NCBI GenBank assembly: GCA_951812955.1
Contig: OX638340.1
Span: 1,856,001-1,920,000, forward strand
DNA: 64,000 nucleotides
DNA from: an uncultured Gemmatimonadota bacterium
Lineage (GTDB): Bacteria > JAAXHH01
Reading direction: 5' to 3'
Positions 20,017-29,972 of the stretch are shown in pieces. The stretch's first letter is position 1. Each line of letters starts with the position of its first letter. The notes under the pieces were generated by a model. The model saw only the letters and a program-made list of their open reading frames with translations. It was not told the origin of the DNA and made no database searches. The position numbers and the translations under genes were made by a program.

Positions 20017-22422
20017 ATGCTCCAAAACTACCTCACCATAGCCATTCGCAACCTGCTCAGGTATCCCGCCTACACGCTCATCAACATCGTGGGGCTCGCG
20101 ATCGGCCTGGCGGCCTGCATGCTGATCCTGCGCTACGTCTGGGACGAGATGAGCTACGATCGGTATCATCCACACGCAGATCGGGTTTACCGGGTAGTCG
20201 ATGACATAGAAAGCGCGGGGCAGACAGTCCAGACGGCGGGATCTCCTTTGGGGTGGGGGCCCGCTCTGAAGCGTGATTTTCCCGAAATCGAGCTTTTCGC
20301 CCGGGTGCGGGGCACGACATCCGTCTGGTTTATCATGCATGAAGAGAAACGTTACTATGAGAAAAAGGTCATCTGGGCGGATGCGGCTCTGCTCGACATG
20401 TTTTCCATCCCCTTTGTCGCCGGCAATCCCCGTACCGCGCTGACCGAACCGTATTCGATCGTGATCTCGGAGGATATGGCCTTCAAGTATTTCGGTGGCG
20501 AGGACCCCATGGGGAAAGTCCTCAGGGGGGACAATGTCTGGGATTTCACGGTGACCGGCGTCATGCGCAACATACCGGCCAATTCCCATCTGCGTCCTGA
20601 TATGATCATGTCCCTTGTGACACGGAATGCCATTTTTGCAAATGACCTCGATGAATGGGAGATGCACGAGAATCGTTATACTTACATCAGGCTGCATGAA
20701 AACGCCTCTCCGGATGCCCTGGAAGCTCAGCTGCCCGCCTTCGTGGAACGAAATAAAACCGGGCGGTTCCGTGATTCGAGCAAAGTGTTGAGACCGTCTC
20801 TGCAGCCCCTGGTGGACATTCACCTCCATTCGCACAGGGACAGCGAGCTCGAGCCCAACGGAGACATCCGCTACGTAACGCTCTTCATGATTATCGCCTT
20901 CCTGATTCCTATCATCGCCTGCATCAACTTCGTGAACCTGGCCACGGCACGATCGGCCATGCGCGCCAGGGAGGTGGGCGTACGCAAGGTTATGGGGGCC
21001 AATCGCCCGCAGCTACTGGGGCAGTTCCTGGGCGAAGCCGTCGTCATGGCGGGACTTGCCATGATCGTCGCGGTCGCGCTTGTACATCTAGCCCTGCCCG
21101 GCGTAAACGTGCTGGCCGGCAAGCAACTGGATTTTGCTCTTTCGGACGGCTGGGTGTTGGGAGCGCTGATCGCTGGAACCATCGTTATCGCAATGGCTGC
21201 CGGTAGCTATCCCGCAACCTACCTATCTGGTTTCCTGCCCACCGATGTACTGAAAGGGAATCTGAAGTCAGGAACGCAAGGCATGGGATTGCGGCGGACC
21301 CTGGTGGTGATCCAGTTCGTCATGTCCATCTTTCTGCTGGTCAGCACCGCCGTCATCTACGACCAGCTCGAGTACATCCAGGACATGAGGCTCGGTTTCA
21401 ATAAAGAGCATGTAATGGTGATCCCGATTACCGGCCAGGCTCAGCGCGAAAACACCCCGGTGCTGAGACAACGCGTCGCGCAGTTGCCCGGCGTGGTAGG
21501 GATAGCGACGACCGATGGCGTCCCGGGCGAACTCTCACCGCGGATTATGGCCGTCCGTTCCGATGAGATGAGCCCCGAGGACAACCTGATTGTGTCTGTG
21601 TTCTCCTCAGATGATCAGTTCCTGGAGGTCATGGAAATCGGCCTGGTGGCAGGCCGGAACTTTCAGGCCGAGTGGGGCAGGGATACAACCATGGTAGTCC
21701 TGCTGAACGAGACCGCTGCCCGTAAGCTGGGTTGGGATGCGCCGCCCGACGCAATAGGTATGCTTGTGGAATGGATCGAGTACCGCGGTACGAAGGGACG
21801 CGTCCGGGGTGTTGTGGAGGATTTTCATCTGCAATCGATTCATGAGGAAATCGAACCGATCGTATACATACACTATCCCATCGACTTCAGCGACATACTC
21901 ATCCGAATCAGGCCGGAAAACGTACCGGATACCATCACACGGATCCAGGAAGTGTGGCGGGAAGTCGAACCCCTGTATCCTCTGGCATATACGTTTCTCG
22001 ACGAAGATTTCGACAGCCTCTACCGTGCCGAACGCCAACTGGGTACGGTATTCGCGGTCTTCGCCTTTCTCGCGATCTTCGTGGCGTGCCTGGGCCTGCT
22101 TGGACTGGCTTCCTTCTCCATCCAGCAGCGGACCAGGGAGATTGGAATCCGCAAGGTACTCGGCGCTACCGTTTCGGACATCGTCCTGCTGCTCTCAAAG
22201 GATTTCATGAAGTATGTACTACTGGCCAATGTGATCGCCTGGCCCCTGGCATACCTTGCCATGGCACAATGGCTGCAGAACTATGCCTATGCGGCGGAAA
22301 TCAACTTTGCGTGGTTTATCGCGGGAGGCCTCGTTGCGGTCGCCATCGCCTGGCTTACGATCGGGGCGCACGCGCTGGCCGCCGCGGGCAGAAACCCGGT
22401 TAACGCACTAAGGCAGGGGTGA
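20017..22422 (+). CDS. Duplicated-FtsX ABC-type permease (MacB/ADOP-like), close paralog of 1-2142
   Basis: 801 aa with two FtsX modules (ACINFVNLATARSAMRAREVGVRKVMGA; FSIQQRTREIGIRKVLGA). The C-terminus AWLTIGAHALAAAGRNPVNALRQG is nearly identical to that of 1-2142. Confidence 0.9.
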   Translation: MLQNYLTIAIRNLLRYPAYTLINIVGLAIGLAACMLILRYVWDEMSYDRYHPHADRVYRVVDDIESAGQTVQTAGSPLGWGPALKRDFPEIELFARVRGTTSVWFIMHEEKRYYEKKVIWADAALLDMFSIPFVAGNPRTALTEPYSIVISEDMAFKYFGGEDPMGKVLRGDNVWDFTVTGVMRNIPANSHLRPDMIMSLVTRNAIFANDLDEWEMHENRYTYIRLHENASPDALEAQLPAFVERNKTGRFRDSSKVLRPSLQPLVDIHLHSHRDSELEPNGDIRYVTLFMIIAFLIPIIACINFVNLATARSAMRAREVGVRKVMGANRPQLLGQFLGEAVVMAGLAMIVAVALVHLALPGVNVLAGKQLDFALSDGWVLGALIAGTIVIAMAAGSYPATYLSGFLPTDVLKGNLKSGTQGMGLRRTLVVIQFVMSIFLLVSTAVIYDQLEYIQDMRLGFNKEHVMVIPITGQAQRENTPVLRQRVAQLPGVVGIATTDGVPGELSPRIMAVRSDEMSPEDNLIVSVFSSDDQFLEVMEIGLVAGRNFQAEWGRDTTMVVLLNETAARKLGWDAPPDAIGMLVEWIEYRGTKGRVRGVVEDFHLQSIHEEIEPIVYIHYPIDFSDILIRIRPENVPDTITRIQEVWREVEPLYPLAYTFLDEDFDSLYRAERQLGTVFAVFAFLAIFVACLGLLGLASFSIQQRTREIGIRKVLGATVSDIVLLLSKDFMKYVLLANVIAWPLAYLAMAQWLQNYAYAAEINFAWFIAGGLVAVAIAWLTIGAHALAAAGRNPVNALRQG

Positions 22423-22433
22423 TTTCGCGGAAA

Positions 22434-23024
22434 TTACACGACGTTCCGAGACTGGGTATCCGAGGCGTTCCAGCAAGTCTCGATCACATTAAAATCAGGT
22501 CGGGACAGGACAACGTAGGAAGGGAGTCCCAACTGTTTCCACATCGCGAATGGGTCCTGGCGAGTAATGCGGCTCACATACAGGCTCAGAACGGTCCCAT
22601 GGGTAATGAGCGCCAGGTCTTCTTGCGGAAATCGTTCTAACAGTCCGTCGACGGACTTTGAGAATCTTCTGTACGCTGTATCCGCGGTCTCCTCGCCAAA
22701 AACCAGCTCCGCAGGTTGAGCGTAGAAACGGCTGATCGACTGCTCAAAGCACTCCTTCTCCAGGAAACCGACACTCCTACGCTCATGTTCCTGCAATCCC
22801 TCGATGACTTCTACCGGAACATTCAGTCTGTGCGCTGAAATATTGGCTGTTTCTATGGCTTTAGGTTCGTTGCTACTGAATATCATATCCAGATTATACG
22901 GTCCCAGTTTCTCAGCCAAGATCCGGGAGCGGACTTGACCTTCTTCAGACAAACGCCATTCCCTGGAAGGAACCGCAGGATCGATCTCAGGCAACGAATG
23001 CTTCACCAGAACCAGTACCGGCAT
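22434..23024 (-). CDS. Histidine phosphatase-family protein (PGAM/SixA-like)
   Basis: N-terminal LVLVKHSLPE (RHG-like with the catalytic His kept), SSNEPKAIETA and a distal LITHGTV. AAGGAGG lies 10 nt upstream of the ATG. Confidence 0.65.
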   Translation of the reverse strand: MPVLVLVKHSLPEIDPAVPSREWRLSEEGQVRSRILAEKLGPYNLDMIFSSNEPKAIETANISAHRLNVPVEVIEGLQEHERRSVGFLEKECFEQSISRFYAQPAELVFGEETADTAYRRFSKSVDGLLERFPQEDLALITHGTVLSLYVSRITRQDPFAMWKQLGLPSYVVLSRPDFNVIETCWNASDTQSRNVV

Positions 23025-23046
23025 CCTTTCGGTACCTCCTTCTATA

Positions 23047-24153
23047 CTACGGCGTATTCACCGGAAAGTGCTTGATCATTCTGATGATCTTCAACTCTGT
23101 TCCCGACGGCATCTCCGAACTACCATGGTGCAGTTGTCGAAAGCCGTTTTTCTCGTAGAACTCCACGGCTGCAAGCGAAGAATTGAGTACGATACGCTCC
23201 GCGCCTGCGCGCATGGCCTGGCATTCCGCTGTTCTGTAAAGTGCCGAACCGACTCCTTTTTTACTCGCCCTGCCGGAAACGAAAACCGCGGCATTGTACT
23301 CAGTACCCTTTGCCCGATGCACCTCGGAGAATCCCAGTAATCCCGTGGCATCTTCGGCCACATAGATTGTCGCTCCCTGCGCAACGGCACCAAGGTACTT
23401 CTCTCGAGATATCGGAGCGATCCACTCCTCGAGAACCTCCATGGCGTAGTAAGGTCCGCAATGGGATCTTATCGATTCTTCGTGTATGATTGCTAGTTCG
23501 TCAAAGTCGGCCTCAGTCGCGCGGCGGACACAGTAGGAGCGTTTAGCCATTTCGACCATCTGCGTGAGTGCGCGGGGATGCTGGTGGTTTTCGAGCGCTT
23601 TTAAAACCCGTGCGGAAGCGTCCTCCGGTGCTTCGGCGGAAGTATCCACCTCGACGTCATAGACCGCGTACCTGTGCACCTGTTCGTACTGGTTTCTCGC
23701 CAGGCCTATAGTCCGATCTCCCCTCGCGACTTCCCTTCGTTCCAATTCATCGAGCGGACAGAAAACCTTCACAAACAGCACATCGAAAGGGCTGAGAATT
23801 TTCACACGATGACGTAACAGATCCAGGACATCGAACTCTTGCCCTGCCGGCAGATGCTGAGGTGGAGCGATAACATCGTCGACGATCACATTGTTACCGC
23901 TGCGGGCCAAGGCCGCGATGCACTCCGCAAACCCCATCTCGAAGTAACGGATGTCGGGGACCAACCCGCGCTTGATCTGTTTGCGCGAAGGAATCTCGTC
24001 GAACAGGTTGATGGAAAAATAGAGGAACGGTTCCTGCAGCACGTCGAGCAACGCCTCAGCCAGCGTCGTCTTCCCAGCGCTCGACGATCCATTGAGATAA
24101 ATCACACTGCCGCTGCGACTAGGGGTTTTCAAGTGCTCAACGTGGGATTTCAT
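23047..24153 (-). CDS. Fusion protein: chloramphenicol-phosphotransferase-like P-loop kinase + GNAT acetyltransferase
   Basis: The N-terminal half matches the CPT family (IYLNGSSSAGKTTLAEAL...VIVDDV...). The C-terminal ~160 aa is GNAT (AAVFVSGRASKKGVGSALY...FYEKNGF). The ORF opens at 24177 (TTG), but the ATG at 24153 forms an ATGA overlap with the upstream stop. Confidence 0.75.
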   Translation of the reverse strand: MKSHVEHLKTPSRSGSVIYLNGSSSAGKTTLAEALLDVLQEPFLYFSINLFDEIPSRKQIKRGLVPDIRYFEMGFAECIAALARSGNNVIVDDVIAPPQHLPAGQEFDVLDLLRHRVKILSPFDVLFVKVFCPLDELERREVARGDRTIGLARNQYEQVHRYAVYDVEVDTSAEAPEDASARVLKALENHQHPRALTQMVEMAKRSYCVRRATEADFDELAIIHEESIRSHCGPYYAMEVLEEWIAPISREKYLGAVAQGATIYVAEDATGLLGFSEVHRAKGTEYNAAVFVSGRASKKGVGSALYRTAECQAMRAGAERIVLNSSLAAVEFYEKNGFRQLHHGSSEMPSGTELKIIRMIKHFPVNTP

Positions 24154-24761
24154 TCTGAAGTCCATTCGCTGGGCCAACTTCCGAGTCGTCGTTCAAAGTA
24201 CAGTTCTAAACCGTCCTCTTCATCAATATGTGAGCCGATTTCCCGAAATCCCATCGACCGAGCCATGCCCAGGGATGGGATGTTACCTGGGTTGATAGAC
24301 AGGACGAAACAACGTTGACCATGTTCTTCATACGCCCATTTCATCAACGCAAGCGCCGCTTCGTTGGCGATGCCCCGTCTGCGGAAGGGTTCTCCAATTT
24401 CGTAGCCGAGTTCTACCCCATCTGCCGCTACATTTCGCAGATCCTCGGGACCGGGCTCGGAGTGGAAGCCGATCCGACCACACATAGTCTGTGACTGTTG
24501 AATGACTATGGCCCGCAACAACCAGGGCTGTACCTCTGGACTGGCATTGAGTTGTCTTAGCCGATTTCGTAAAGTACGGGTGTTGAGAACAAGGTCTATC
24601 GGAATCTTAAAGCCGGCGATCTTCTCTGCCAGCAGTTGATTCCGGGCTATCAACGCTTCCAGCAGTCGCGGGGCCATCGGAACCAATTCCAGCCGACGTG
24701 AGGTAATGATGTGGATTATTGGCTGTTCTCCGTTCGTCACCAGTGTTACAGAGAGGAACAA
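24150..24761 (-). CDS. GNAT N-acetyltransferase (RimJ/RimL-like)
   Basis: ITSRRLELVPMAP N-terminus typical of the RimL-like subfamily, plus GYEIGEPFRRRGIANEAALALMKWAYE. The exact start is uncertain (TTG at 24761). Confidence 0.75.
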   Translation of the reverse strand: MFLSVTLVTNGEQPIIHIITSRRLELVPMAPRLLEALIARNQLLAEKIAGFKIPIDLVLNTRTLRNRLRQLNASPEVQPWLLRAIVIQQSQTMCGRIGFHSEPGPEDLRNVAADGVELGYEIGEPFRRRGIANEAALALMKWAYEEHGQRCFVLSINPGNIPSLGMARSMGFREIGSHIDEEDGLELYFERRLGSWPSEWTSE

Positions 24762-24826
24762 TTAGACCGATGCCGTAAGTATAATGGCAGCACGCGTCCG
24801 TTACCAACCATTCCCTGCCGATCCGC

Positions 24827-26245
24827 CTACTCCCTGATTCCACACGCCTCGTCCGTCAGCACGTCGTAGTGATGTATGTACTTGACGCCGTCGATCACGA
24901 GCCGATCGGTTTGTGGTAGATCCTCCTCCCACGTCATTTCGACTCCCTGCAAATGGGGTGGCTTCTCCCGCTTGCCCCAGTGATTGCCGTTGTAGCGCCG
25001 GAACAGCAGCGTGCGGCCAGCGCGGGTGACGTACGCCATGACCAACACCGCTCGTTCGGACGTATCTTCGTCGATATCGAAAACCCGCATGCATTCGAAT
25101 GTCCGATCGCCGATGCACACCGTGTAGAGGCCCTGTGAAAACACCAGCGGCGCATCCGATTTCTTAATGAACGTTCCATCCGGTTGTTCCGTCAGGTAAT
25201 CCCGGTCTTCGACCAGACGGGGCGTCATCCCGAAATCCCATCCAAAGTCCTCGTCCAGGCAGGTCAGAAGTTCCCTGGTTCCATCGGATTTCATGCTCTC
25301 GACGGCCAGCCAATGCACCTCCGTCTCTTCCAGGCGGCCCCAGACCCGGGTATGGCGATCCCTCGTTTCCGGATCATGGTTGAGCGTTAGGAGACCCTCC
25401 CGGTCTGGACGGCGTTGTTCATCCATCTCGATCTCTACGCATGGTCTTCCGTGTATGATGGCGCGCCGCGTTGCAACCATGTCCTTGACCTCGGTTAACT
25501 TCCAGGCCGAACCATCCCGCGTAGGCTCGTAATCCGCCCATCGGACCTGATCACCGATTTCGGGTACGATGAACCACCAGGACAGCTCCCGAAGATCTAT
25601 GGAAAATGGAGTTGCCGTACTTATCTCGATGGATATATCGGGCCGGTAATTGGGAAAGGGTACAGTCGTAGCTTTTGTGTCGTCGCTCATGGCCATGCTC
25701 CTTCTATTGGTGGTTACACCCAGTTCGATTCGAACCATGTCCCGTCCGTGAGACAGCCGCCGCTCGATGGTTCCCGGTGGGCAGCGATGACGGGCCGCAA
25801 TTTCCGCTATGCTCAATCCATCCAGGTAGAACGACCTCAGGGCCGCTTGTTCCTTATCGGGCACGTGATCGAAGGCTTCGACCACATCCTTCGCTGCCCG
25901 CCGTTGACGGGCCGTCGGCACACCGAATCGATTAATCATCGTTGCCAGTTCCTCGGAATCGACGAAGCGCTCTCGCCGTTGTGTAGAGCGCATGAAGTCG
26001 ACGCAGCGGTTGCGCGCAACCTGGTACAGCCAGGCGCGCACGTTTCTCGGTGATCGAACACGCAACCCCAACCAGGCATGAACGAGCGTCTCCTGTAGCA
26101 CGTCCTCTACCGCCTCCACCGACCCGATACGATCCCGGATCAATGCGGCCAGAGATCGCTCGTAGCGCCGGATCAGGGCCACGAAGGCCCGTTCGTCGCC
26201 GGTCCGGATCTGTTGAACAAGTACCTGGTCACTGAGGAACCCCAT
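24827..26245 (-). CDS. ECF-type sigma-70 factor with ~280-aa C-terminal extension of unknown function
   Basis: Region 2 (FVALIRRYERSL...DVLQETLVHAWL...WLYQVARNRCVDFMR) and region 4 (FYLDGLSIAEIAARHRCPPGTIERRLSHGR) lie within the first ~185 aa. The remaining ~285 aa are soluble with no TM segment and no family I recognise. Confidence 0.8.
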   Translation of the reverse strand: MGFLSDQVLVQQIRTGDERAFVALIRRYERSLAALIRDRIGSVEAVEDVLQETLVHAWLGLRVRSPRNVRAWLYQVARNRCVDFMRSTQRRERFVDSEELATMINRFGVPTARQRRAAKDVVEAFDHVPDKEQAALRSFYLDGLSIAEIAARHRCPPGTIERRLSHGRDMVRIELGVTTNRRSMAMSDDTKATTVPFPNYRPDISIEISTATPFSIDLRELSWWFIVPEIGDQVRWADYEPTRDGSAWKLTEVKDMVATRRAIIHGRPCVEIEMDEQRRPDREGLLTLNHDPETRDRHTRVWGRLEETEVHWLAVESMKSDGTRELLTCLDEDFGWDFGMTPRLVEDRDYLTEQPDGTFIKKSDAPLVFSQGLYTVCIGDRTFECMRVFDIDEDTSERAVLVMAYVTRAGRTLLFRRYNGNHWGKREKPPHLQGVEMTWEEDLPQTDRLVIDGVKYIHHYDVLTDEACGIRE

Positions 26246-26425
26246 TAGATCGTTCTCCCTTCATCTAACAGGGCGATGTTGGCGGGGGAAAGGTTCACGG
26301 AGTTTGGAAAAGGTGACTACGTGGAGTATTGGAATGAAGCCATGAGGTACGGTCAGTTTGGCTTCTTCTGACTGAGGTGGAATAGGCTTCGTATCAGCTT
26401 ACCCCAGGATGAAAGACCAGCGAAC

Positions 26426-26785
26426 TCACCCAGATCCTGCTACAGGCCAATCAGCACCAGCCCCTGGTCCGATAACATGCCAATGCATGTGTGGCGTAAC
26501 TCCTGGCGCCGCCGCATTGGCACGCACATAGAATCCCCTGCCATCCAGCAGACCGGTGGACTTTGCAGTCTGCTGGACAGCACGCACCATGGAAGAGAGC
26601 AGATCCCCATCCAGGGCGGCCTCATCCATAAGCCCAGCAACGTGGGTTTTAGGTACCACTACCACATGGACCTGGGCTACGGGTCGCGGGTGGCGGAACG
26701 CCAATACCAGATTGTCCTCATAAATCCGTTTCACGTCGAGCTTTCCTGAGAATACATCCTCGCAATACCAATCTCGTCGCGCCAT
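26426..26785 (-). CDS. HIT-family protein
   Basis: Histidine-triad motif HMHWHVI. 119 aa. Confidence 0.85.
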   Translation of the reverse strand: MARRDWYCEDVFSGKLDVKRIYEDNLVLAFRHPRPVAQVHVVVVPKTHVAGLMDEAALDGDLLSSMVRAVQQTAKSTGLLDGRGFYVRANAAAPGVTPHMHWHVIGPGAGADWPVAGSG

Positions 26786-26832
26786 ATACTTCCCACTTTC
26801 CCGAACCTAAGGTGCAGACACTTGGATCGCCT

Positions 26833-26871
26833 TAATCATAATCATTAGATGTAACACTGATTAGATGTTAA
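26833..26871. promoter_or_regulatory. AT-rich repeat cluster in the HIT/GNAT divergent intergenic region
   Basis: (TAATCA)x2 at 26833-26844, then ATTAGATGT exact at 26844-26852 and 26860-26868 (16-nt period). Confidence 0.3.
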
Positions 26872-26947
26872 TTTACATTAAAACCAGGAATCCCGTTTAA
26901 GGTTTTATATAGCAATATTCCAGACTAGCCATATTGGATTCAACACC

Positions 26948-27427
26948 ATGCGGAACAAACAGGAATTGATTCGAATCGAACCCCTTGAGACGAAACATCA
27001 TTGCGGGATCCTCGAAATCGTAGAGCGTCTCCCCGAGTGGTTTGACGAAACCGCACGAACAAAGTCTGTCCCCACCGACTTGCGGCATCAGCTCGGTTAT
27101 GTAGCCGTCTCAAATCATAGGGTGGTCGGATTTGTCACCCTATACGTTACAGAGGGTCGGTTGCATATCGGCTGGCTTGGGGTCGAAAAGGAGTTACAGC
27201 GGCAGGGACTGGGCAGTCGGCTTTTGGGAGCGGCGGAATCGAAAGCTCTACAGATGGATATAGACCAACTCGCAACATATACGCTGGGTGACAGCGTCAC
27301 GTACCAACCCTACGAGGTGACGCGGAATTTCTACTGGAAGCACGGATTCAAGGTCTACAAGCGATCCAGGACAGACAACCCCGGATGCCCTGAAGAAATC
27401 TGGATCTCGAAGCAGGTCAAACCATGA
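26948..27427 (+). CDS. GNAT N-acetyltransferase
   Basis: Acetyl-CoA-binding motif VEKELQRQGLGSRLL and C-terminal FYWKHGF. 159 aa. Confidence 0.75.
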   Translation: MRNKQELIRIEPLETKHHCGILEIVERLPEWFDETARTKSVPTDLRHQLGYVAVSNHRVVGFVTLYVTEGRLHIGWLGVEKELQRQGLGSRLLGAAESKALQMDIDQLATYTLGDSVTYQPYEVTRNFYWKHGFKVYKRSRTDNPGCPEEIWISKQVKP

Positions 27428-27539
27428 AATGCATCCACCAAAGCGTTCATTGGTAGAAACGAAAAGACGAAACTCGGCATTTCGGAAGCCTGCGTCTCGC
27501 GAAGAATGTAATTGAACAGGTGTTTTCCCGGAGTTCAGC

Positions 27540-28346
27540 GTGGACCGTGACGTAATCCAATACTACGAAGAGCTTGAGAACGAATCCGATCGCCTGGATA
27601 GGGGTACCGCCCGGTTGGAAAGCGAAAAGACCAGGGAGATCCTTCGGGAATACCTCCCCGCACCGCCGGGTCGCATCCTCGACGTGGGCGGCGGTCCGGG
27701 CGCTTACGCCTTCTGGCTGGCAGAGCAGTCCTATGAAGTCCATTTGGTGGACATTGTCCCGCTCCACATCGAGCAGGCAAAGGAACGCGATAAAGACGGA
27801 ATCTTGAAAAGCGCGGAAATCGGCGATGCCAGAAACCTGGACTTCGAGACTGATTCCATGGACGCGGTCCTTCTATTGGGACCGCTGTACCACCTTCCCG
27901 AGCGGCCGGACAGGCTCGCGGCGCTTGAGGAATCCCTTCGCGTGCTGAAACCGGAGGGAGTCCTTTTCTGTGTAGCCATTTCCAGGTTCGCTTCGCTCCT
28001 GGACGGTATGAGAAAGGGATACCTGTTCGATCCGGTGTTTTCCAGGATAGTCCTGAAAGACCTGGTCGAAGGGCGCCACGAAAACCCGGACATGGATCCA
28101 CGCTACTTCACCACGGCCTGCTTCCATCGGCCTGAAGAACTCGAAGAAGAGATCACGGACGCGGGGTTCGAACTGTTAAAGACGTCAGGCCTGGAAGGGC
28201 CGGCGTGGCTTCTCGGCGATTTCGACGACCTGTGGGCAGACGAGACCAAGCGCAAGGAATTGCTCACTTTCCTGAAGCTGGTCGAGACGGAAACCTCGCT
28301 CATCGGCGTGAGCGCGCACATCCTTTCAGTAGCGAAAGCGCCTTGA
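27540..28346 (+). CDS. Class I SAM-dependent methyltransferase
   Basis: Motif I ILDVGGGPGAYA, followed by VDIVP and LKPEGVL motifs. Confidence 0.8.
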   Translation: MDRDVIQYYEELENESDRLDRGTARLESEKTREILREYLPAPPGRILDVGGGPGAYAFWLAEQSYEVHLVDIVPLHIEQAKERDKDGILKSAEIGDARNLDFETDSMDAVLLLGPLYHLPERPDRLAALEESLRVLKPEGVLFCVAISRFASLLDGMRKGYLFDPVFSRIVLKDLVEGRHENPDMDPRYFTTACFHRPEELEEEITDAGFELLKTSGLEGPAWLLGDFDDLWADETKRKELLTFLKLVETETSLIGVSAHILSVAKAP

Positions 28347-28415
28347 ATGTGCTGGCATCCCGTGAAGTGTTCTAAACTACCTTAACGTGCCGTCCGTTTC
28401 TTAGAGACCAAAACC

Positions 28416-29108
28416 TTGTCCATCTCAGCAATCTCATTCGATGGCGACATGACACTTTGGGACTTTCAGAAGGTCATGCGCCATTCATTAAAAAAAGCTC
28501 TGGCAGCACTTCGCGGGCTGGTTCCGACCCAACGCGCTGTGGACCTTTCCGTGGAGGAAATGATTGCGATTCGCGGTGAGGTCGAAGAAGAAGTGAAGGG
28601 CAGGATCTGGAACCACGAGGAAATCAGGCGGCTCTCCTTCGAGCGGACACTCGAAATCATCGGCCGCCCGGATCGTGAAATCGCTGCCTATCTCAATAAG
28701 GTATACCTGAAACACCGTTTCGAAGACATCGAATTGTATCCCGACGTCATCCCTACTTTCGATGAACTGGCACCTCATTACAAGCTGGGTCTGCTGTCAA
28801 ACGGAAACAGTTATCCGGAACGCTGTGGGTTGGAGGCACGTTTTGCCTTTGTCATCTTCTCGCAGGATGTACAAATTAGGAAACCAGACCGGAGAATCTT
28901 CGAGATAACCGCGCAGAAAGCGGGCTGCCCATTGGAGGAGCTGTTGCACGTAGGGGATTCTCTGAAAAACGACGTCGCTGGGGCGAATGCAGCAGGCGCA
29001 CGATCGGTCTGGTTGAATCGCGACAGTCAGGCAAGTCACTCTGGGTTCGCGGCGGAATTTGAAATCGCTACATTGGCCGACCTTCCAGCAGTTCTGGAAA
29101 ATGACTGA
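28416..29108 (+). CDS. HAD-superfamily hydrolase
   Basis: DxD motif FDGDMTLWD, a LLSNG motif and C-terminal GDSLKNDV. Confidence 0.8.
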   Translation: MSISAISFDGDMTLWDFQKVMRHSLKKALAALRGLVPTQRAVDLSVEEMIAIRGEVEEEVKGRIWNHEEIRRLSFERTLEIIGRPDREIAAYLNKVYLKHRFEDIELYPDVIPTFDELAPHYKLGLLSNGNSYPERCGLEARFAFVIFSQDVQIRKPDRRIFEITAQKAGCPLEELLHVGDSLKNDVAGANAAGARSVWLNRDSQASHSGFAAEFEIATLADLPAVLEND

Positions 29109-29180
29109 TTTGGGGCAGATTGTTCAAATCACGCTTGGAAGTACAGATATGCACAATTGGGTATCGGAAAGGAGCTTCAT

Positions 29181-29972
29181 ATGATCATCCACAAACTGGT
29201 CGCAGCCACTTGCATGATCGGTCTGGGAATGTACGGCTGTTCCTCTTCAGAGATTCCTGAGGACCCGCCGGTCCAGACCGAGCAGGTCGCATGGGGATAC
29301 GGTGACGAGAACGGACCGGACGTCTGGGGCCAGTTAAGCCCGGATTTCGCCTTATGTGCCGAGGGATCGCTGCAATCTCCGATCGACCTTGCGAATGCCA
29401 CGTCGTCGGAACTTCCCGAAATCGTCTTCAACTATAGTCCGTCGGCGGTGAATATCCACCATAACGGCCACACGATTGAAGTGGCGCCCACCGGGGAAAA
29501 CTCGATTGAGATCGATGGTGTACGTTACGCGCTTCTGCAGTTCCATTTCCACGCTCCGAGCGAGCACTCGGTGGACGGCCGGTTATTCGACATGGAAATG
29601 CACCTCGTGCACCGGAACGAAGAAGGCACCCTGGCAGTTATCGGAGTTCTGATCGAGCAGGGCGCCGACAATGCGACGTTCGGTCCCCTGTGGACGAATA
29701 TGCCGGACACGCCCGGCGTAACGAACAGCGTAGAGAACGCCACCGTTGATGCCGGCGACTTGCTGCCGGGCGACAGGCAGACCTATCGCTATGACGGCTC
29801 GTTGACTACACCGCCGTGTTCAGAAGGTGTCAAATGGAACGTGCTGACAACGCCCATTGAACTGTCCGAACCGCAGATCGCCGCTTTCAAAGCAGTTGTC
29901 CATGACAACAATCGGCCGGTACAGCCGCTGAATGAGCGTGAACTGCTTTCGGATGGTGCTGGAGAAGGCTAG
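29181..29972 (+). CDS. Alpha-class carbonic anhydrase, probable lipoprotein
   Basis: QSPIDL, zinc ligands in QFHFHAPSEH and EMHLVH, and GSLTTPPCSEGV. Lipobox-like LGMYGC. AAGGAG lies 6 nt upstream of the ATG at 29181; the ORF opens at 29157. Confidence 0.9.
   Translation: MIIHKLVAATCMIGLGMYGCSSSEIPEDPPVQTEQVAWGYGDENGPDVWGQLSPDFALCAEGSLQSPIDLANATSSELPEIVFNYSPSAVNIHHNGHTIEVAPTGENSIEIDGVRYALLQFHFHAPSEHSVDGRLFDMEMHLVHRNEEGTLAVIGVLIEQGADNATFGPLWTNMPDTPGVTNSVENATVDAGDLLPGDRQTYRYDGSLTTPPCSEGVKWNVLTTPIELSEPQIAAFKAVVHDNNRPVQPLNERELLSDGAGEG

What the first reader, a model, noticed from the sequence alone, without database searches (positions are those of the whole stretch)
22434..26245. ECF-sigma-led four-gene operon of acyl/phospho-transfer enzymes
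The minus-strand order is ECF sigma with a C-terminal domain, 65 nt, GNAT, an ATGA overlap, CPT-kinase::GNAT fusion, 22 nt containing AAGGAGG, then histidine phosphatase. The spacing argues for one transcript. Together, a kinase, a phosphatase and two or three acetyltransferase domains under a dedicated self-contained sigma factor look like an inducible small-molecule (antibiotic-like) modification and response module. No anti-sigma factor gene is present.
Basis: partly seen in the sequence, partly recalled or inferred. Interest (0 to 1): 0.5.

Follow-up and report, generated by a model that had tools for sequence, protein, structure and literature searches.

The report
Self-regulating sigma factor with passenger enzymes
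The four genes are real and tightly packed, but the three enzyme genes are dispensable passengers; the conserved unit is an ECF sigma factor with its own promoter, permanently fused to an uncharacterised partner domain that other bacteria encode as a separate gene right after the sigma gene.

Summary
On the minus strand lie an ECF sigma with a ~285-aa C-terminal domain (CTD), a GNAT, a CPT-kinase::GNAT fusion (ATGA overlap) and a histidine phosphatase (22-nt gap with AAGGAGG). The GNAT start is uncertain, so the first gap is 65 to 149 nt.

- **An ECF-type promoter exists.** TGAACCTTT-N13-CGCCCTG (26269-26297) sits 51 nt before the sigma ATG and is kept in 74 of 78 related loci. It occurs once in the window. 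No terminator separates the genes, so read-through co-transcription is plausible but untested.
- **The enzymes are not co-conserved with the sigma.** Of 79 related genome loci, only 16 syntenic close relatives carry any of them, and those in patchwork. The two closest relatives have a clean ~1.7-kb deletion of GNAT plus CPT::GNAT, with remnants left at both edges. The other 63 loci have none.
- **The sigma's conserved partner is its own CTD.** The CTD has no Pfam or PDB sequence match and a confident all-beta model with weak LolA/RseB-like similarity. It also exists as a stand-alone ~260-280-aa protein. Seven such genes were looked up: four directly follow an unfused ECF sigma gene, and three of those four were seen to carry the same promoter motif.

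The unit is most likely an autoregulated sigma fused to its regulator. This is moderately interesting.

The parts
26269..26297 (-). ECF-type promoter motif TGAACCTTTCCCCCGCCAACATCGCCCTG (-35 GAAC, 17-nt spacer, -10 CGCC). The GAAC core starts 51 nt before the sigma ATG.
   Evidence: This is the only match in the 64-kb window at up to 2 mismatches. The same motif sits at the same position in 74 of 78 related loci labelled as several different phyla. It is also upstream of split sigma/partner operons. Promoter activity was not tested.
25703..26245 (-). ECF sigma domain (aa 1-181: sigma2 plus sigma4) of the 472-aa protein.
   Evidence: Pfam gives Sigma70_r2 at 47 bits, Sigma70_r4_2 at 38 bits and Sigma70_ECF at 39 bits. 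NCBIfam TIGR02937 scores 74.9 bits against a cut-off of 42.9. C81 and C155 are invariant across 20 homologues.
24827..25693 (-). Fused C-terminal domain (aa 185-472 plus stop): an uncharacterised soluble all-beta domain, the sigma's conserved partner.
24762..24826 (-). Spacer between the sigma stop and the longest-ORF start of the GNAT. It has no terminator and contains a weak sigma70-like match, TTGGTA-18-TATACT (24807..24778).
   Evidence: The terminator scan finds nothing here, and the promoter-like hit count is at chance level. The RNA fold z-score is 0.16. The spacer is conserved in L001, L002 and L004.
24150..24761 (-). GNAT acetyltransferase (Acetyltransf_3). The start is uncertain: TTG 24761, GTG 24743 or ATG 24677.
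   Evidence: Pfam scores 56 bits. It is present in 5 of the 17 syntenic loci counted with the window. The gene caller on L209 uses the ATG start. It has no NCBIfam or PDB sequence match.
23047..24153 (-). CPT-like P-loop kinase fused to a GNAT domain. Its ATG overlaps the upstream stop (ATGA).
   Evidence: Pfam gives CPT at 148 bits plus Acetyltransf_10/7/1. NCBIfam equivalog CPT scores 85 bits, below its cut-off of 250. The closest solved structure is chloramphenicol 3-O-phosphotransferase 1grq, E 8e-18, covering the kinase part only. The gene is deleted, leaving remnants, in L001, L002, L004 and L005.
22434..23024 (-). Histidine phosphatase (branch 1) with its own AAGGAGG ribosome-binding site. 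Its stop lies 11 nt from the convergent MacB-like permease gene, which ends at 22422.
   Evidence: Pfam His_Phos_1 scores 62.6 bits. The best solved relative is the uncharacterised Atu0299, 2qni. It is present in 6 of the 17 syntenic loci counted with the window.
26426..26785 (-). HIT-family gene upstream on the same strand. It is a neighbour, not part of the unit, because the ECF promoter lies between it and the sigma gene.
   Evidence: Pfam HIT scores 56 bits. The adjacency is kept only in the close syntenic clade.

Best explanation
The conserved functional unit is a positively autoregulated ECF sigma factor whose cognate partner protein has become its C-terminal domain.

**What is shown**
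- The sigma gene carries a family-wide ECF-type promoter (TGAACCTTT-N13-CGCCYTG) just upstream.
- Its ~285-aa C-terminal domain belongs to an unannotated, soluble, all-beta family.
- In other bacteria a stand-alone member of that family often lies next to an ECF sigma gene, in four of the seven cases examined directly after it.

**What is inferred**
- The CTD takes the place of an anti-sigma factor or sensor. It would hold the sigma2/sigma4 domains in an inactive or active conformation until a cytoplasmic signal, possibly a hydrophobic small molecule bound in a LolA/RseB-like open barrel, changes that contact. The sigma would then amplify its own expression from its own promoter.
- In this genome the GNAT, CPT::GNAT and histidine phosphatase genes lie downstream with no terminator, so they are probably carried on the same induced transcript.
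- They are lineage-specific, individually dispensable accessory genes in a variable stretch between the sigma and the MacB-like permease. They are not the sigma's conserved regulon, which probably lies elsewhere in the genome.
For: **Sigma::CTD is a conserved full-length family**
- 248 proteins match at E<=0.001, and the 120 listed are 52-94% identical, mostly over 96-100% of the length.
- 202 stretches in the genome collection encode a relative; the best 80 were kept as 79 loci.

**Promoter**
- The motif is present 37-64 nt before the ATG in 74 of 78 loci. Flanking positions that the search pattern did not force are also conserved.
- It occurs once in the window.
- The four loci lacking it have a stand-alone CTD paralogue gene immediately upstream of the sigma. 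In three of them the motif sits directly upstream of that gene; in the fourth a match lies about 600 nt upstream with no gene call next to it.

**Split versions of the system** (seven stand-alone CTD homologues looked up)
- Four lie directly after, or overlapping, an unfused ECF sigma gene of about 176-184 aa; one of these sigma calls is cut short by the contig end.
- One follows a sigma and zf-HC2 gene pair.
- One follows a fused 459-aa sigma.
- The three split sigmas compared are 25-50% identical to the window's sigma domain and carry GAACCTTT-N12/13-CG(C/A)C upstream.

**Nature of the CTD**
- It is soluble, with no anti-sigma-domain helices and only a short linker (a few tens of residues or less) to sigma4.
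- The model is confident.
- Its best fold neighbours are LolA-like half barrels, including the sigma-E regulators RseB and MucB, but the similarity is weak.

**Enzymes as passengers**
- Their presence is patchy within the syntenic clade, and none is near the sigma in the other 63 loci.
- L001 and L002 carry a deletion with remnants of the GNAT 5' end and the CPT::GNAT 3' end, and L004 carries a separate deletion.
- No gene family other than the sigma is conserved across the loci.

**Read-through is plausible**
- No terminator or stable hairpin lies in the spacer.
- The ATGA overlap and the ribosome-binding site are visible in the sequence.
Against: - No transcript data exist, so co-transcription and autoregulation are inferred from sequence alone.
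- Whether the CTD inhibits or activates the sigma is unknown, and no contact with sigma2 or sigma4 was modelled. The full-length model had low confidence in the CTD.
- In one split locus a canonical zf-HC2 protein sits between the sigma and the CTD homologue. There the CTD homologue is not the primary anti-sigma and could be a co-regulator or a target.
- One stand-alone homologue has no sigma in its own operon.
- The remnants show that the window's gene order is the older state in its immediate clade. The arrangement has therefore persisted for some time and may confer a benefit in this lineage.
Confidence: 0.62

Rival explanations
1. The four genes are one dedicated, inducible small-molecule (antibiotic-like) modification module. 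The sigma senses the compound through its C-terminal domain and switches on the kinase, phosphatase and acetyltransferases as its principal regulon.
For: - The genes are co-directional and tightly spaced, with an ATGA overlap and no terminator.
- An ECF promoter lies upstream of the first gene.
- The enzyme families resemble drug-modifying enzymes: the closest solved structure for the kinase part is chloramphenicol phosphotransferase.
- The gene order is retained in near-identical contigs and was ancestral to the immediate clade.
Against: - Within the window and its 16 close syntenic relatives (17 loci), the enzymes are kept in only 3, 5 and 6 loci. All three together occur only in the window lineage.
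- The two closest relatives have cleanly deleted two of the genes while keeping the sigma, its promoter and its CTD intact.
- The other 63 loci have different neighbours.
- The CTD and sigma pairing, split or fused, is found in quite different gene contexts.
- CPT scores below the NCBIfam equivalog cut-off (85 against 250), so chloramphenicol is not implied as substrate.
Confidence: 0.12
2. The enzyme genes are transcribed independently of the sigma, from a housekeeping-type promoter in the 65-149-nt interval after the sigma stop. The adjacency is an accident of a variable accessory-gene hotspot between the sigma and the MacB-like permease.
For: - A sigma70-like match, TTGGTA-18-TATACT, lies at 24807..24778.
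- If the GNAT starts at the ATG at 24677, as called on L209, the gap is 146 nt.
- In relatives the same interval holds other cargo, such as a small membrane protein, a ~343-aa ORF family of unknown function, a ~135-aa ORF family of unknown function and a methyltransferase, often 380-900 nt from the sigma.
Against: - The number of promoter-like hits is at the chance level for the region: 3 found against 3.6 expected.
- No terminator follows the sigma gene, so read-through would occur in any case.
- The two explanations are not exclusive.
Confidence: 0.2
3. The C-terminal domain is not a regulator but the effector: an enzyme or binding protein that the sigma co-expresses. The stand-alone versions downstream of sigma genes would then be first target genes rather than anti-sigma-like partners.
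For: - In one locus a canonical zf-HC2 anti-sigma lies between the sigma and the CTD homologue.
- The family has nearly invariant His, Asp and Glu residues (H81, H274, D277, E36, D147 in CTD numbering) that could form a metal or catalytic site.
- It has no resemblance to known anti-sigma domains.
Against: - Fusions of a sigma factor to its regulator are a recognised and recurrent pattern: 19 ECF groups in the published classification have C-terminal extensions, typically without an anti-sigma factor (PMC7826278; PMC8999054). Fusion of a sigma to an unrelated effector has no established precedent (own knowledge).
- Four of the seven split cases examined have overlapping or near-abutting sigma and partner genes with no other candidate regulator.
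- The fold neighbours are ligand-binding half barrels, not enzymes.
Confidence: 0.15

Closest known systems
ECF sigma factors with fused C-terminal regulatory extensions (for example ECF41 with a SnoaL-like extension and ECF42 with a TPR extension)
   Same: - Sigma2 plus sigma4 core followed by a conserved cytoplasmic extension longer than 50 aa.
- No separate anti-sigma gene.
- A conserved ECF-type promoter in front of its own gene.
- The extension clusters with one sigma clade.

This matches how the published classification describes such groups (PMC7826278; PMC8999054).
   Different: - The extension is about 285 aa, all-beta, with no SnoaL, TPR, WD40, Cys-rich or transmembrane features and no Pfam match.
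- It also occurs widely as a separate gene after the sigma gene.
- Assignment to a numbered ECF group could not be tested here.
Classical ECF sigma / anti-sigma operons (sigma gene followed by an overlapping partner gene)
   Same: In the split relatives, the partner gene overlaps or abuts the 3' end of an unfused ECF sigma gene of about 176-184 aa. Where checked, an ECF-type promoter lies upstream of the pair.
   Different: - The partner has no class I anti-sigma-domain helices, no zinc-binding HxxxCxxC motif and no membrane anchor.
- In the window the partner is fused to the sigma.
- In one locus a zf-HC2 protein is present in addition to the partner.
RseB / MucB and the LolA/LolB open beta-barrel fold
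   Different: - RseB, MucB and LolA are periplasmic, whereas this domain is cytoplasmic and attached to the sigma.
- No homology is claimed.
Bifunctional drug-modifying enzymes such as AAC(6')-Ie/APH(2'')-Ia, and Streptomyces chloramphenicol 3-O-phosphotransferase
   Same: CPT::GNAT joins a small-molecule kinase fold to an acetyltransferase. The kinase half matches the CPT family and its solved structure.
   Different: - The kinase is a P-loop CPT-type fold, not an APH-type fold (own knowledge).
- It scores well below the CPT equivalog cut-off, so the substrate is unknown.
- The gene is being lost in close relatives.

Membership tests
ECF (group IV) sigma-70 factors | Only sigma2 and sigma4 domains are present, with no sigma3 or sigma1.1. 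| tested here: met
   Pfam Sigma70_r2, Sigma70_r4_2 and Sigma70_ECF all score above their cut-offs within aa 9-174. TIGR02937 scores 74.9 bits against 42.9.
ECF (group IV) sigma-70 factors | An ECF-type promoter (GAAC-like -35, CGT/CGC-like -10, spacer of about 16-17 nt) lies upstream of its own gene, implying autoregulation. | tested here: met
   GAAC-N17-CGCC lies 51 nt before the ATG and is conserved in 74 of 78 loci and in split relatives. Only the presence of the motif was tested, not its activity.
ECF (group IV) sigma-70 factors | A co-encoded canonical anti-sigma factor (anti-sigma domain, zf-HC2 or RskA type). | tested here: not met
   None is found among the main ORFs from about 17.3 to 30 kb of the window. 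No recurring candidate appears in 79 loci.
ECF sigma factors with a C-terminal regulatory extension | A conserved extension longer than 50 aa after sigma4, correlated with the absence of an anti-sigma factor. | tested here: met
   The extension is about 285 aa and conserved over its full length in the listed homologues. No anti-sigma factor is present.
ECF sigma factors with a C-terminal regulatory extension | The extension is of a described type (SnoaL-like, TPR, WD40-like, Cys-rich, DUF1835 or transmembrane). | tested here: not met
   The CTD and ten homologues have no Pfam hit in the CTD region. No transmembrane segment is present. The model is all-beta and LolA-like.
ECF sigma factors with a C-terminal regulatory extension | The extension contacts sigma2, sigma4 or the linker and modulates activity. 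| not testable with these tools
This needs complex modelling or experiment.
A numbered ECF group of the ECF classification 2.0 | A match to the group-specific HMM on the ECF Hub resource. | not testable with these tools
   The group HMMs and the supplement are not available here. The paper's main text lists no group with this type of extension.
Sigma-led operon or dedicated regulon of the four genes | The enzyme genes are co-conserved with the sigma across genomes. | tested here: not met
   Counting the window and its 16 syntenic relatives (17 loci), the phosphatase is in 6, the GNAT in 5 and CPT::GNAT in 3. None of the other 63 loci has any of them. Deletions are seen in L001, L002 and L004.
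Sigma-led operon or dedicated regulon of the four genes | An uninterrupted transcription unit with no terminator or internal promoter. | tested here: inconclusive
   No terminator is found. A chance-level sigma70-like match lies in the spacer. The GNAT start is uncertain. No RNA data are available.
Chloramphenicol phosphotransferase (CPT) | Family-level match with a P-loop. | tested here: met
   PF07931 scores 148 bits against a cut-off of 22. The Walker A motif GSSSAGKT is visible in the translation. The match to 1grq has E 8e-18.
Chloramphenicol phosphotransferase (CPT) | Equivalog-level identity to the resistance enzyme. | tested here: not met
   NF033114 scores 85 bits against a cut-off of 250.
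RseB/MucB/LolA fold | Significant structural superposition over the whole domain. | tested here: inconclusive
   [not shown]

The most novel reading that the evidence does not exclude
The C-terminal domain and its stand-alone homologues could be a previously unrecognised class of soluble ECF sigma partner. It would be a non-helical, LolA/RseB-like beta half-barrel that senses a cytoplasmic, possibly hydrophobic, ligand and controls its sigma directly, either as a separate protein or fused to it. The fused form appears to have spread across MAGs labelled as several different phyla. Many of those MAGs carry isolate names that look like sponge-microbiome studies, which would point to a habitat-specific signalling system moved by horizontal transfer.
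Probability: 0.3. Interest if true: 0.65.

Novelty: new variant of a known kind. Interest (0 to 1): 0.4.

Why it matters
[quoted passage not shown] The published classification itself notes that soluble anti-sigma variants without similarity to known ones probably remain undetected (PMC7826278). This locus points to a well-defined family that could be one of them: 375 representative clusters, with no Pfam or PDB sequence match. The family has three features that make it directly testable:
- It occurs in both split and fused architectures.
- It has a sharply conserved cognate promoter, which could serve as a ready-made reporter.
- It has a confident structural model.

For genome annotation, the result is a caution. 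Tight spacing behind a sigma factor does not make a regulon. Here the downstream enzymes are accessory cargo that close relatives are losing.

Tried and rejected
1. **Metagenome scan with the promoter pattern to find regulon members.** Only 3 of the 80 fetched loci had a family sigma directly downstream of the motif, and the rest look like chance matches. It was of no use for defining the regulon.
2. **Full-length AlphaFold2 model from a 20-sequence alignment.** The sigma core was good but the CTD was poor (mean pLDDT 56.7). It was replaced by a CTD-only model built on a diverse alignment.
3. **afdb50 fold search.** The library was not available.
4. **ORF cluster 'c12'.** It first suggested a phosphatase downstream of the sigma in 9 loci. 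It turned out to be chained through a fused ORF in L003 and is really two unrelated proteins. The counts were corrected to the tblastn result.
5. **Exact look-ups of the GNAT with three alternative starts.** None found anything, so the start remains unresolved. The window's CPT::GNAT was not on record for a contig look-up, so a cluster mate was used instead.
6. **Literature search for the promoter core and the supplement of the ECF classification.** Both gave nothing, so assignment to a numbered ECF group is open.
7. **A second copy of the ECF motif in front of the enzyme genes.** Rejected.
8. **A terminator or structured element in the sigma-GNAT spacer.** Rejected.

Full report
**1. Observation**

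The minus strand of 22434-26245 carries four ORFs exactly as described. Pfam confirms each one.
- The first is a 472-aa protein whose first ~175 residues are an ECF sigma factor (Sigma70_r2, Sigma70_r4_2, Sigma70_ECF). Its last ~285 residues match nothing.
- The second is an Acetyltransf_3 GNAT.
- The third is a CPT-like P-loop kinase (148 bits) fused to a second GNAT domain.
- The fourth is a branch-1 histidine phosphatase.

The sequence shows the ATGA start/stop overlap at 24150-24153 and the 22-nt gap with AAGGAGG before the phosphatase.

The one soft point is the '65 nt' gap, which assumes the most upstream TTG start of the GNAT. A gene caller on a near-identical contig starts the gene at the ATG equivalent to 24677, which gives a 146-nt gap. 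No candidate start has a ribosome-binding site. The Pfam match begins at residue 23 of the long ORF, so the true start is unresolved.

No terminator-like site lies between the genes, and the spacer folds no better than shuffled sequence (z = 0.16). The phosphatase stop is 11 nt from the stop of a convergent MacB/FtsX-type permease gene.

**2. Is the gene set co-conserved?**

The sigma with its C-terminal domain (CTD) is a well-populated full-length family. There are 248 proteins at E<=0.001, and the 120 listed are 52-94% identical, mostly over 96-100% of the length. A scan of one genome per species returned 79 loci. I searched all of them with the window's proteins by tblastn.

Only the 16 closest loci (L001-L016, 76-94% sigma identity) share synteny with the window, in the order HIT, sigma, a variable stretch, MacB-like permease, 839-aa protein. 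In that clade the stretch between the sigma and the permease is a patchwork.
- L001 and L002 have the phosphatase only.
- L004 and L005 have the GNAT, a remnant of CPT::GNAT and the phosphatase.
- L013 has the GNAT and CPT::GNAT but no phosphatase.
- L008 has CPT::GNAT only.
- L006 has the GNAT only.
- In L010, L014 and L016 the sigma directly abuts the permease gene.
- Other loci hold other cargo: a ~343-aa ORF family and a ~135-aa ORF family, both of unknown function, and a methyltransferase. In five loci a small membrane protein lies directly after the sigma.

Counting the window, the phosphatase is present in 6 of 17 loci, the GNAT in 5 of 17 and an intact CPT::GNAT downstream of the sigma in 3 of 17. 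All three occur together only in the window and in near-identical contigs. In the remaining 63 loci none of the three enzymes is within 6 kb of the sigma. All-against-all clustering of ORFs found no gene family, apart from the sigma itself, that accompanies it across clades.

A DNA alignment shows how the differences arose. L001 and L002 keep four pieces: the spacer after the sigma stop, the first ~25 nt of the GNAT ORF, the last ~50 nt of CPT::GNAT, and the AAGGAGG followed by the phosphatase gene. This is a clean ~1.7-kb deletion. L004 has separately lost most of CPT::GNAT.

The window's order is therefore the older state in its immediate clade, and it is being eroded while the sigma, its promoter and its CTD stay intact.

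**3. The promoter**

Upstream regions of the sigma gene from loci labelled as different phyla share a striking motif, gtGAACCTTt-N13-CGCC(C/T)TGt. It lies 37-64 nt before the start codon in 74 of 78 loci. In the window it is at 26269-26297, with the GAAC core starting 51 nt before the ATG. The architecture, GAAC then 17 nt then CGCC, is that of ECF-type promoters (own knowledge of the family). The simplest reading is positive autoregulation.

The four loci without the motif (L047, L049, L057, L061) have a stand-alone paralogue of the CTD encoded immediately upstream of the sigma. In three of them the motif sits directly upstream of that gene. In L049 a match lies about 600 nt upstream, with no gene call next to it.

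In the 64-kb window the motif occurs once at up to 2 mismatches. A relaxed core adds only one hit, which is at chance level. No enzyme gene has its own copy, so the enzymes can depend on this sigma only through read-through.

**4. The C-terminal domain**

The CTD has no Pfam match, either here or in ten homologues, and no sequence match in the PDB. An exhaustive profile search found 375 representative clusters at E<=0.001. They fall into two architectures: fused to a sigma (about 415-475 aa) and stand-alone (about 255-285 aa).

I looked up seven stand-alone members.
- Four lie directly after, or overlapping, an unfused ECF sigma gene (176, 180 and 184 aa; the fourth call is cut short by the contig end).
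- One is the third gene after a sigma and a 108-aa zf-HC2 protein.
- One follows a fused 459-aa sigma.
- One has only a convergent sigma/zf-HC2 pair nearby.

The three split sigmas I compared are 25-50% identical to the window's sigma domain and carry the same GAACCTTT-N12/13-CG(C/A)C motif upstream. The CTD is therefore the cognate partner of this sigma clade, encoded separately or fused to it.

The CTD is soluble: the maximum hydropathy over a 19-residue window is 0.75. It is joined to sigma4 by only a short linker, and the stand-alone proteins begin directly with the conserved FPxxRP motif. There is no room for a helical anti-sigma domain.

An AlphaFold2 model built on a 36-sequence alignment is confident (pLDDT 91.4, pTM 0.89) and all-beta. 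No solved structure matches well.
- Foldseek gives YmcC-like and LolA3 structures with TM-scores of 0.24-0.43.

These are ligand-binding open beta-barrels. The resemblance is a lead, not evidence of homology.

**5. Most likely mechanism**

*Shown:*
- a conserved sigma::CTD protein;
- a conserved ECF-type promoter in front of it;
- split homologues arranged like sigma/partner operons;
- enzyme genes that come and go.

*Inferred:*
- The CTD substitutes for an anti-sigma factor or sensor and modulates the sigma core in response to a cytoplasmic signal. This is how fused extensions are described for ECF41 and ECF42 (PMC8999054; PMC7826278).
- The active sigma then amplifies its own transcription.
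- In this genome the transcript probably continues through the GNAT, CPT::GNAT and the phosphatase, because nothing stops it.

I put about 0.6 on this overall picture. The direction of CTD action, inhibitory or required, is open. The zf-HC2 case shows that in some lineages the partner works alongside a canonical anti-sigma factor rather than in place of one.

**6. The enzymes**

The kinase half of CPT::GNAT matches Streptomyces chloramphenicol 3-O-phosphotransferase structurally (E 8e-18) but scores far below the equivalog cut-off (85 against 250). The GNAT has no NCBIfam or PDB sequence match. The phosphatase's best solved relative is an uncharacterised Agrobacterium protein. Their substrates are unknown. 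'Antibiotic-like modification' remains possible but is not indicated by anything beyond the family names.

**7. Comparison with known systems, and novelty**

The unit works like an ECF sigma with a fused regulatory extension. It meets the general criteria of that class but none of the described extension types. Assignment to a numbered ECF group could not be tested, because the group models and the supplement were not available. I rate it a new variant of a known kind.

The four-gene 'module' itself is ordinary: accessory enzymes parked behind a sigma gene in a variable region.

**8. Verdict**

Its central claim, that the enzymes are the sigma's dedicated output, is not supported. Interest is 0.4, carried by the uncharacterised sigma-partner domain and its sharply conserved promoter rather than by the enzymes.

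Noticed in passing
L001-L079: The sigma::CTD family comes almost only from MAGs. Their isolate names look like sponge-microbiome studies (APA_, IRC, COS, RHO, SB06xx bins) or are UUID-named complete 'MAG: bacterium' chromosomes. The labels span Gemmatimonadota, Latescibacterota, Spirochaetia, Gammaproteobacteria (Pseudomonadales, Azotimanducaceae) and Binatia, at 41-94% identity. This suggests habitat-linked horizontal spread, but the habitat was not verified.
   Followed up: no
L047 5126-5947, L049 5138-5959, L057 5117-5944, L061 5108-5944: A stand-alone paralogue of the CTD (about 32% identical to the window's CTD) is encoded immediately upstream of the fused sigma gene. In three of the four loci the ECF motif lies directly upstream of that paralogue rather than of the sigma. 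The result is a two-copy arrangement of the partner domain.
   Followed up: partly
Contig of protein P0220 (no DNA available): An operon of an ECF sigma (177 aa), a zf-HC2 protein (108 aa) and a CTD-like protein (263 aa). Here the partner domain coexists with a canonical anti-sigma factor.
   Followed up: no
window 25782-25784 and 26004-26006 (C155 and C81 of the sigma protein): Two cysteines, one in sigma2 (RNRC) and one in sigma4 (RHRCP), are invariant across 20 homologues at 54-94% identity. They could form a redox or metal link between the two domains, as has been proposed for some other ECF groups.
   Followed up: no
L003 7522-~7880, L005 9309-9863, L006 7527-8063, L009 7525-8061, L013 7642-8076: A small predicted membrane protein (about 145-180 aa, with a charged C-terminal tail) lies directly downstream of the sigma in five close relatives. 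It is absent from the window, L001 and L002. Its role is unknown. It had been wrongly merged with the phosphatase in my ORF clustering.
   Followed up: partly
window 22434-29972 and the same region in L001-L016: The sigma sits in a stretch dense with small soluble enzymes on both strands: histidine phosphatase, CPT::GNAT, two further GNATs, HIT, a SAM methyltransferase, HAD and carbonic anhydrase. The content of this stretch varies between close relatives, which makes it a plasticity zone rather than a pathway.
   Followed up: partly
window 22422-22434: The phosphatase gene and the convergent MacB/FtsX-type permease gene end only 11 nt apart, leaving no room for terminators. Convergent transcripts would overlap.
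   Followed up: no
L018 6001-7389 and 8737-10134; L018 and L046 come from the same contig: Some genomes carry two or three copies of the sigma::CTD gene, each with its own copy of the promoter motif.
   Followed up: no
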